A stretch of DNA of 64,000 nucleotides, from assembly GCA_964016885.1 (NCBI GenBank), contig OZ024762.1:21762001-21826000 (forward strand), in the 5' to 3' direction. This stretch comes from Eledone cirrhosa (Eukaryota). A program made the position numbers and the translations under genes. This document shows, piece after piece, positions 4,156-4,824 of this stretch. The notes under the pieces are model-generated. The model saw only the letters and a program-made list of their open reading frames with translations, searched no databases and was not told where the DNA came from. Numbering within the stretch: position 1 is the first letter of the stretch; the number at the start of each line of letters is the position of its first letter.

Positions 4156-4236
4156 GCTCTATATAGTCTTAAAAAGACTATTTCACGATACTTTTCAGTG
4201 GGGTTAATGACGGTTGGAGTCATTCATCAGTAGAGC
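4156..4236 (-). ncRNA. Type I hammerhead ribozyme motif
   Basis: Minus strand: GCTCTA-CTGATGA-(stem II region)-GAAA-TAGTCTT ttt AAGACTA-TA^-TAGAGC. Stem I is 6 bp, stem III is 7 bp plus A-U, and the site is AUA. Stem II is weak. Confidence 0.75.
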
Positions 4237-4369: not shown

Positions 4370-4432
<63 letters not shown>

Positions 4433-4566
4433 AGAAGGGGTATTTAATTTTTTGGAAATACAACAAATATAAATGTTTATAACTGATTCAGAGCACTTTA
4501 CAAATTTCTGGAGTGAATATTCAATGATATTAAATAAATGGAATCTATATTCATAAAACCATATTT

Positions 4567-4628
4567 ATTCTATTATATATATTTCAAGGGTACCAACAAA
4601 ACTTTGGTACGCTTTCATCAGATAAAAT
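4567..4628 (-). ncRNA. Minimal type I hammerhead ribozyme motif
   Basis: Minus strand: ATTTTAT-CTGATGA-AAGCGTACCAA agttttg TTGGTACCCTT-GAAA-TATATA-TA^-ATAGAAT. Stem I is 7 bp, stem II is 10/11 bp, and stem III is palindromic. Confidence 0.8.
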
Positions 4629-4694
4629 ACATGATTTCCTTGGCTATGTCAAAATTTATAAAACACTCTTTGTCAATAAATACAACAGGATTTT

Positions 4695-4755
4695 TTTCAT
4701 TCTGATGACTGAAAGCAAATTTTGTTTGCTTTCAAGAAACCACTGGTAAATGAAA
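4695..4755 (+). ncRNA. Minimal type I hammerhead ribozyme motif
   Basis: TTTCATT-CTGATGA-cTGAAAGCAAA ttttg TTTGCTTTCAa-GAAA-CC act GG-TA^-AATGAAA; GUA cleavage triplet. Confidence 0.82.
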
Positions 4756-4780
4756 TAATTATCTTATGTTGTTTATTACA

Positions 4781-4824
<44 letters not shown>

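What the first reader, a model, noticed from the sequence alone, without database searches (positions are those of the whole stretch)
4430..4785. Two divergently oriented hammerheads 66 bp apart in one TA-flanked island
4567-4628(-) and 4695-4755(+) both have CTGATGA/GAAA cores, 7-bp stem I and 10-11-bp stem II, but different sequences. Transcripts of either strand could self-cleave. A ribozyme on each polarity recalls ambisense viroid-like RNAs, though two adjacent insertions is the simpler reading. The (+) motif recurs alone at 41533-41593.
Basis: partly seen in the sequence, partly recalled or inferred. Interest (0 to 1): 0.75.

Follow-up and report, generated by a model that had tools for sequence, protein, structure and literature searches.

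The report
Two retrotransposon ends fused head-to-head
The two predicted self-cutting RNA motifs are the ends of two different families of Penelope-like jumping genes, joined back to back at this one spot, most likely because a second element landed on and replaced one arm of an ordinary mirror-image insertion; it is a rare scar, not a viroid-like RNA.

Summary
Both motifs are real type I hammerhead folds. Each is the 3' end of a different Penelope-like retroelement family: A (8,421 exact 21-mer matches in the genome) and B (743). Longer copies carry reverse-transcriptase/GIY-YIG frames with Hydra-clade motifs, 38% identical between families. Hammerheads pointing apart are the normal footprint of these elements, already described in 2014. 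Among divergent pairs without a microsatellite between them in the DNA fetched, 129 were same-family and 3 cross-family. The island reads: A arm (minus, with tail), 42 nt of A (plus), then B (plus, tail-less), switching at a shared TGT. Both junctions occur once in the genome, so the pair is not a mobile unit, and nothing supports the viroid reading. Most likely (0.6) an ordinary A/A insertion lost its right arm to a later B insertion or deletion. A single integration using RNAs of two families (0.3) is not excluded: a second cross-family join exists, and both keep the one-tail rule of single insertions. Cleavage is untested and is predicted to be weak as a monomer. The 41.5-kb copy is on the minus strand with a broken core.

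The parts
4374..4429 (.). (TA)n microsatellite, left target flank (start approximate)
   Evidence: Sequence; (TA)n is the usual flank of both families
4430..4631 (-). 3' end of Penelope-like family A, 5'-truncated 10 nt upstream of the hammerhead core, long (tail-bearing) end
   Evidence: 93-96% identical to many genomic copies over query 1-202; nearest 95.5%; linked to an RT/GIY-YIG frame in L093, L094
4430..4516 (-). Family A 'tail': the stretch (about 85 nt) between the two recurrent 3' ends of family A
   Evidence: Partner arms in A/A pairs end at query 85-93; tail concept from PMC11167929, PMC8557442
4566..4629 (-). Type I hammerhead of family A; predicted cleavage after AUA (A17 at 4574); AU-only palindromic stem III
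   Evidence: activity untested
4632..4673 (+). 42 nt of family A sequence lying just upstream of the A hammerhead, in plus orientation: the start of the right arm of an A/A head-to-head pair
   Evidence: 100% identical to A copies L008, L014, L017, L021; in intact A it runs on into the hammerhead
4671..4673 (+). TGT microhomology at the A-to-B switch; the same TGT of A is where the left arm stops (4629-4631, minus)
   Evidence: Sequence, piece map, joint 4628/4673 with 3 shared letters; junction single-copy
4671..4786 (+). 3' end of Penelope-like family B, 5'-truncated about 30 nt upstream of the core, short (tail-less) end
   Evidence: 97-98% identical to many copies; linked to an RT/GIY-YIG frame in L096, L100
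4695..4755 (+). Type I hammerhead of family B; predicted cleavage after GUA (A17 at 4748); near-palindromic stem III
   Evidence: activity untested
4785..4820 (.). (TA)n microsatellite, right target flank
   Evidence: Sequence
41502..41615 (-). Independent, older solo copy of family B between (TA)n tracts; core mutated to CTGATTA
   Evidence: nearest fetched copy 92%

Best explanation
The island is a one-off fusion of the hammerhead-bearing 3' ends of two different Penelope-like retroelement families, likely formed in two steps: an ordinary head-to-head A/A insertion in (TA)n, whose right arm was then likely replaced by a family-B copy joined at a 3-base microhomology. Shown: the identity of the three pieces (A minus, 42 nt A plus, B plus), the link of each family to an RT/GIY-YIG frame, the high frequency of same-family divergent pairs, and that both junctions are single-copy (identity of the pieces: about 0.95). 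Inferred: step 1, the A enzyme cuts (TA)n and extends both DNA ends on A RNA from its two start sites (one tail end, one short end), and the cDNAs are joined head to head. Step 2, a B element primes in the (TA)n next to the right arm and attaches its 5' end at TGT with loss of about 113 nt of A plus flank, or an already neighbouring B copy is brought up by a microhomology deletion. The switch sits at the stem/loop border of the hairpin that an A/A pair could form, which would favour that site. The hammerheads are passengers; a transcript of either strand holds one sense motif of dimer type, so little cleavage and no function of the locus are expected.
For: Copy numbers 8,421 and 743 exact 21-mers, controls 0. 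Same-family inverted partner in 45 of 90 A loci and 23 of 89 B loci taken in genome order. Over 314 records (887 kb), divergent pairs without microsatellite: 129 same-family, 3 cross-family; cross-family neighbours separated by a microsatellite are common (52 convergent, 29 tandem, 2 divergent), so landing beside an older copy is routine. The left junction (tail arm cut near -10, other arm starting near -42 to -67) has the same form in A/A pairs L108/109 and L116/117. B copies often start near -30 on their own (L051, L052, L066, L085, window 41.5 kb). Junctions single-copy. A arm 95.5% and B 98.3% to nearest copies, in the order expected if B is younger. Opposite-strand dual hammerheads and inverted 5'-truncated copies are published PLE features.
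Against: The island has exactly one tail end and one short end, as single insertions do (complementary in 39 of 42 A and 18 of 21 B readable pairs), and so does the second cross-family join L265; from solo-copy tail frequencies (16 of 44 A, 18 of 62 B) two-step origins give this in both cases about 1 time in 4, against about 4 in 5 for single events. The switch falls on the same TGT where the left arm ends, as twin priming on one A RNA would give. The age difference is weak: 9 differences in 244 nt of A (arm plus spacer) against 2 in 116 nt of B. No pre-insertion allele could be seen, and no independent run bridged the junction.
Confidence: 0.6

Rival explanations
1. Single cross-family integration: one break in (TA)n was extended at both ends, the left on an A RNA from its tail start site, the right on a B RNA from its short start site; the B cDNA jumped onto the A RNA at TGT, just where the first cDNA stopped, copied 42 nt and was joined to it.
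For: One tail plus one short end in the window and in L265. Switch point equals the left arm's end. Weak A/B likeness just upstream of the switch (B hits extend to query 226). Both DNA strands are cut and extended in vitro, two start sites, predicted dimer (PMC11167929). In 16 of 90 A loci a tail arm stops before the hammerhead while the short arm runs on, a twin-priming geometry.
Against: No direct A(-)/B(+) join without a bridging piece was found with three narrow patterns. In A pairs the two arms tend to be closer to each other than to other copies (median 94.5% against 90.3%; in B 96.1% against 95.5%, uninformative). The two RTs share only 38% identity. A rotifer study saw no cross-mobilisation between PLE families (PMC3846280). 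Cross-family joins are rare enough (1 of 179 genome-order loci) to be explained by insertion with deletion.
Confidence: 0.3
2. Assembly artefact: a collapse between an A/A palindrome and a nearby B copy.
For: The junction is single-copy and no contig from 5 public runs bridged it among the pieces listed; palindromes in microsatellite DNA are hard to assemble (PMC8557442).
Against: A second join of the same layout exists; the runs hold at most 0.45 of the island's words, so they need not contain this allele; the three pieces are clean and join at microhomologies.
Confidence: 0.05
3. An ambisense viroid-like or retrozyme-like RNA with a ribozyme on each polarity, integrated as DNA.
For: [quoted passage not shown]
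Against: Each half belongs to a separate coding retrotransposon family; the unit is single-copy; no terminal repeat (longest shared word of the two ends 8 nt) and a branched fold with 61-63% paired bases; the predicted cleavage sites lie on opposite strands and point outwards, so they cannot release a unit-length RNA.
Confidence: 0.02

Closest known systems
Inverted pseudo-LTR insertions of endonuclease-positive Penelope-like elements with minimal type I hammerheads (Cervera and De la Pena 2014, PMC4209133, text parts 1-2 of 4 read; Arkhipova et al. 2013, PMC3846280, passages; Craig et al. 2021, PMC8557442, passages and section 11)
   Same: Type I fold with long stem II and palindromic stem III; dual motifs close together on opposite strands (100-700 bp in S. 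mansoni); head-to-head arrangement; tail at one end only; 5' truncation; microsatellite target.
   Different: Here the two arms come from different families. The G10.1-C11.1 pair that the 2014 paper calls highly conserved is A-U in A and a C-A mismatch in B (family traits). Tails are longer (about 85 and 64 nt against 30-40).
Hydra clade of Penelope-like elements (Craig et al. 2021, PMC8557442, section 11 read)
   Same: C-terminal GIY-YIG, hammerhead, (TA)n target; B has RWK, DKT, CxxC and CxH; A has CxCx5C, CxxC and CxH; relatives among the 120 listed hits mostly about 700 aa and carry RWK (110), DKT (119), CxCx5C (111).
   Different: No tree was built. The paper lists a small number of families outside Cnidaria; here family A alone has more than 8,000 hammerhead copies.
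Poseidon element PAc of Anolis, in vitro mechanism (Frangieh et al. 2024, PMC11167929, text parts 1-2 of 4 read)
   Same: Two adjacent reverse-transcription start sites defining a tail; AT-rich target; both strands extended; hammerhead not needed for insertion and cleaving only with protein.
   Different: Different clade; there the hammerhead overlaps the ORF start, which I could not show for A or B; no cross-family products were described in the parts read.
L1 twin priming, insertion-mediated deletion and chimeric L1 (recalled; only a search listing seen)
   Same: Inverted 5' piece abutting the main arm, short microhomology, loss of target DNA.
   Different: Different enzyme class; PLE arms start at programmed internal sites.
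Symmetric viroid-like circular RNAs (bioRxiv 10.1101/2022.07.19.500677, passages)
   Same: A ribozyme motif on each polarity.
   Different: Genomic, single-copy, no circle or multimer evidence, halves derive from retrotransposons.

Membership tests
Type I hammerhead ribozyme | Core CUGANGA, GAAA, NUH in type I order with stems I-III | tested here: met
   for both motifs; the 41.5-kb copy fails (G8 lost)
Type I hammerhead ribozyme | G10.1-C11.1 pair | tested here: not met
   A-U in A, C-A mismatch in B; the same in family representatives. Described as highly conserved, not invariant, in PMC4209133
Type I hammerhead ribozyme | Self-cleavage | not testable with these tools
   No assay; no RNA run listed
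PLE-type minimal hammerhead | Short palindromic stem III suited to dimers | tested here: met
   AUAUAUAU self-duplex -3.2, ACCACUGGU self-duplex -8.2 kcal/mol; B homodimer forms through stem III; A/B duplex +2.4
EN+ Penelope-like element | RT followed by GIY-YIG endonuclease, same sense as the hammerhead end | tested here: met
   L093, L094 (A) and L096, L100 (B); Atlas neighbours carry PF26215, some PF00078 and PF01541 at 12-23% of members. Direct Pfam scan of four fragments found no RT or EN family
EN+ Penelope-like element | Inverted 5'-truncated copy and tail at one end | tested here: met
Hydra clade | RWK and DKT motifs | tested here: inconclusive
   Present in B (L096); the fetched A copies are truncated before this region
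Hydra clade | CxCx5C linker, CxxC and CxH in the endonuclease, no CCHH | tested here: met
   A: linker intact in L093, L094, CxxC and CxH in L093; B: CxxC and CxH in L096, L100, third linker cysteine substituted in the decayed L096 copy; no cysteine pair between the GIY-YIG strands
Hydra clade | (TA)n targeting | tested here: met
Hydra clade | Placement in the RT tree | not tested
   No named reference set was held
Viroid-like ambisense circular RNA | Ribozyme motif in both polarities | tested here: met
Viroid-like ambisense circular RNA | Propagates as a unit (multimer, terminal repeat or further copies) | tested here: not met
   Single-copy junctions; no terminal repeat
Viroid-like ambisense circular RNA | Exists as a circular RNA | not testable with these tools
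   No RNA holder listed
Non-LTR retrozyme | Head-to-tail tandem units each with a hammerhead on one strand | tested here: not met
   No tandem unit in the island; definition from bioRxiv 10.64898/2026.07.22.740005, part 1 of 5

The most novel reading that the evidence does not exclude
One Penelope-like integration can use the RNAs of two families whose enzymes share only 38% identity: each end of the cut (TA)n is primed on a different RNA, one at its tail start and one at its short start. The window and L265 would be fossils of such mixed complexes, and dozens to hundreds more should exist in this genome, giving a route to cross-mobilisation and end exchange between PLE families.
Probability: 0.3. 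Interest if true: 0.55.

Novelty: new member of a known kind. Interest (0 to 1): 0.24.

Why it matters
As it most likely stands, it matters little: it is retrotransposon debris, and it warns that 'a ribozyme on each strand' in animal DNA is the routine footprint of Penelope-like insertion, not a sign of a viroid-like agent. The by-products are of some use. Two abundant families with Hydra-clade motifs show a near-strict rule of one tail end and one short end per insertion, which fits two-ended priming at the two start sites seen in vitro. If the rare cross-family joins follow that rule in a full census, they would show that one integration complex can hold two unrelated RNAs, a testable point about a poorly understood transposition cycle.

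Tried and rejected
Rfam scans gave no hammerhead row; the rows shown for the window are chance hits below threshold, nearly all microRNA models on microsatellites. Pfam on four ORF fragments gave one weak irrelevant hit. I first read the families as Neptune-type from memory and changed to Hydra after reading the clade's motifs. Apparent second A/B joins were rejected: L179 and L199 are tail-to-tail neighbours with (TA)n between; L313, the only hit of an A/B pattern, is a same-family pair of a B-related family. Patterns for the reciprocal B-to-A switch and for a direct A/B join found nothing; they cover only narrow spacings and exact matches. No RNA holder was listed among public runs. Contigs of five runs were laid in two calls; none of the listed pieces bridged the A/B junction, which proves nothing. 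Earlier scan notes by sequence and by a first word set returned nothing; the eight notes shown concern a differently wired hammerhead and do not bear on this. PMC9977147 (passages) held nothing on cross-family joins. Paper searches for Penelope with twin priming and template switching (1 unrelated review) and with chimeric and cross-mobilization (4 papers listed) showed no description of cross-family head-to-head PLE joins; the library lacks most subscription papers and I read no supplements, so this is no proof of absence.

Full report
Observation. The island 4430-4786 lies between two (TA)n tracts. A scan for type I hammerheads that demands the core and all three stems found 4566-4629(-) and 4695-4755(+), and no hit in 5000 Markov resamplings of the island. 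B folds as a hammerhead in its minimum-energy structure; for A only stem II forms in the centroid structure. Neither has the G10.1-C11.1 pair. The copy at 41.5 kb is B on the minus strand with G8 lost. Rfam reports neither motif.

What the halves are. The window lies in a 3.0-Gb genome. The left 244 nt match a large family, A; none of the other places scored (40 of 4,323 candidates) reached beyond query position 245. The right 116 nt match a second family, B (40 of 1,485 scored). Exact 21-mers over the two cores occur 8,421 times (A, several subfamilies) and 743 times (B), controls 0. [quoted passage not shown] The A and B fragments share 38% identity. B shows RWK, DKT, CxxC and CxH, and A shows CxCx5C, CxxC and CxH: the marks given for the Hydra clade of Penelope-like elements, which also targets (TA)n (PMC8557442 section 11). 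The 120 listed homologs carry RWK (110), DKT (119) and CxCx5C (111). No tree was built, so the clade call rests on motifs. No such frame lies in the window.

Divergent hammerheads are the norm here. I took pattern matches in genome order: 90 A loci (from the first 100 matches; three places left out; three pairs counted from both arms; L238 and L239 look duplicated) and 89 B loci (two places left out because fetched earlier, one of them a B/B pair). A same-family inverted partner lay upstream, without a microsatellite between, in 45 of 90 and 23 of 89. Where both ends could be read, one had the tail and the other not in 39 of 42 and 18 of 21; the rest were short/short, none tail/tail; one tail/tail pair was seen in the best-hit set (L058). 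Across all 314 records held (887 kb, enriched for three families and for best hits), adjacent hammerheads within 400 bp that diverge with no microsatellite between were same-family in 129 cases and cross-family in 3; cross-family neighbours with a microsatellite between numbered 52 convergent, 29 tandem and 2 divergent. This layout is published: dual minimal hammerheads 100-700 bp apart on opposite strands (PMC4209133), an inverted 5'-truncated copy and a tail at one end (PMC8557442), head-to-head as the commonest form (PMC3846280).

Anatomy of this island. Counting from the first base of each core: A(-) from +190 (tail end) to -10; then 42 nt of A(+) ending at -8; then B(+) from about -30 to +84 (short end). 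The switch shares TGT (4671-4673), and this is the same TGT at which the left arm stops. The A/B junction 23-mer and the A/A junction 25-mer each occur once in the genome with up to one mismatch; a gapped version also gives only this site; a junction-centred DNA search found no other spanning copy among 40 scored of 2,389. The pair therefore does not travel as a unit.

Other cross-family joins. One of the 179 genome-order loci, L265, has the same layout with other partners: a third family's arm, 25 nt of that family folded back, then A with tail. That family's arm is the short form, so this join also has one tail. L114 may be a third case, but its second piece is a weak, core-less match. L179, L199 and L313 were rejected.

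Mechanism. Two steps is my best reading (0.6). The left junction looks like that of ordinary A/A pairs, B copies often begin near -30, and new insertions land beside old ones all the time, so an A/A pair losing its right arm to a B insertion or to a later microhomology deletion needs nothing new; the analogy to L1 insertion-mediated deletion is recalled, not tested. The single-event reading (0.3) has real support: both cross-family joins keep the one-tail rule (roughly threefold more likely under one event, from the solo-copy frequencies 16 of 44 and 18 of 62), the switch sits where the left arm ends, and the Anolis enzyme cuts and extends both strands from two start sites (PMC11167929). Against it: no direct join without a bridging piece was found, arms of A pairs tend to resemble each other, and no cross-mobilisation was seen in rotifers. 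Divergence from nearest copies (95.5% A arm, 100% spacer, 98.3% B) does not separate the models. An artefact cannot be excluded, since no public contig bridged the junction.

Activity. Both stems III are self-complementary and B's homodimer forms through stem III, while A and B stems do not pair. A minimal PLE hammerhead showed no cleavage as a monomer and low cleavage as a dimer (PMC4209133); the Anolis motif cleaved only with protein and was not needed for insertion. A transcript of either strand carries one sense motif, so weak or no cleavage is expected (inference). The island has no terminal repeat and folds as a branched structure with 61-63% pairing; nothing points to a viroid-like RNA.

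Verdict. Real motifs, known kind of arrangement, new family members, with a rare cross-family junction whose origin is open. Interest 0.24.

Noticed in passing
window 4156-4236 (-): A third type I hammerhead of another family, about 200 bp left of the island beyond (TA)n, with an 8-bp stem III that forms in the monomer (fold z -4.3); a better candidate for monomer cleavage than A or B.
   Followed up: partly
window 46653-46725 (+): A fourth hammerhead (CUGAGGA, palindromic stem III) of yet another repeat family also seen in L003 and L044.
   Followed up: partly
L265:420-890 (G000:C1 near 49.614 Mb): Second cross-family head-to-head join: family A with tail fused to a short-ended arm of a third family through a 25-nt fold-back piece.
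   Followed up: partly
L114:2070-2510: Possible third cross-family head-to-head join; the second piece lacks the first half of its core.
   Followed up: no
L096:1239-1305; also L036, L048, L056, L098, L100: The 3' UTR of family B holds a 67-nt stretch 78-82% identical to part of family A's tail, in the same sense, about 1 kb upstream of its own hammerhead: a relic end or a shared binding motif.
   Followed up: no
L044, L050, L052, L164 (B); L110, L111, L115, L123 (A): Insertions in which the tail-primed arm stops inside or at the end of the tail while the short-primed arm runs on; in L044 it stops at the base where the other starts. This is the geometry of twin priming at the two start sites.
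   Followed up: partly
B pairs (-42 to -45), A pairs, third-family pairs L283-L311: Inversion centres cluster at short palindromes upstream of the hammerhead, as if two cDNA ends anneal or fold back there.
   Followed up: partly
L313:1410-1675: A B-related family with a longer stem II and nearly the same sequence after the core, present as a one-tail head-to-head pair.
   Followed up: no
all fetched loci: The scan grouped type I hammerhead-like hits into 27 sequence clusters in 887 kb; singletons may include chance hits. No hammerhead row appeared in the Rfam scans of the window.
   Followed up: no
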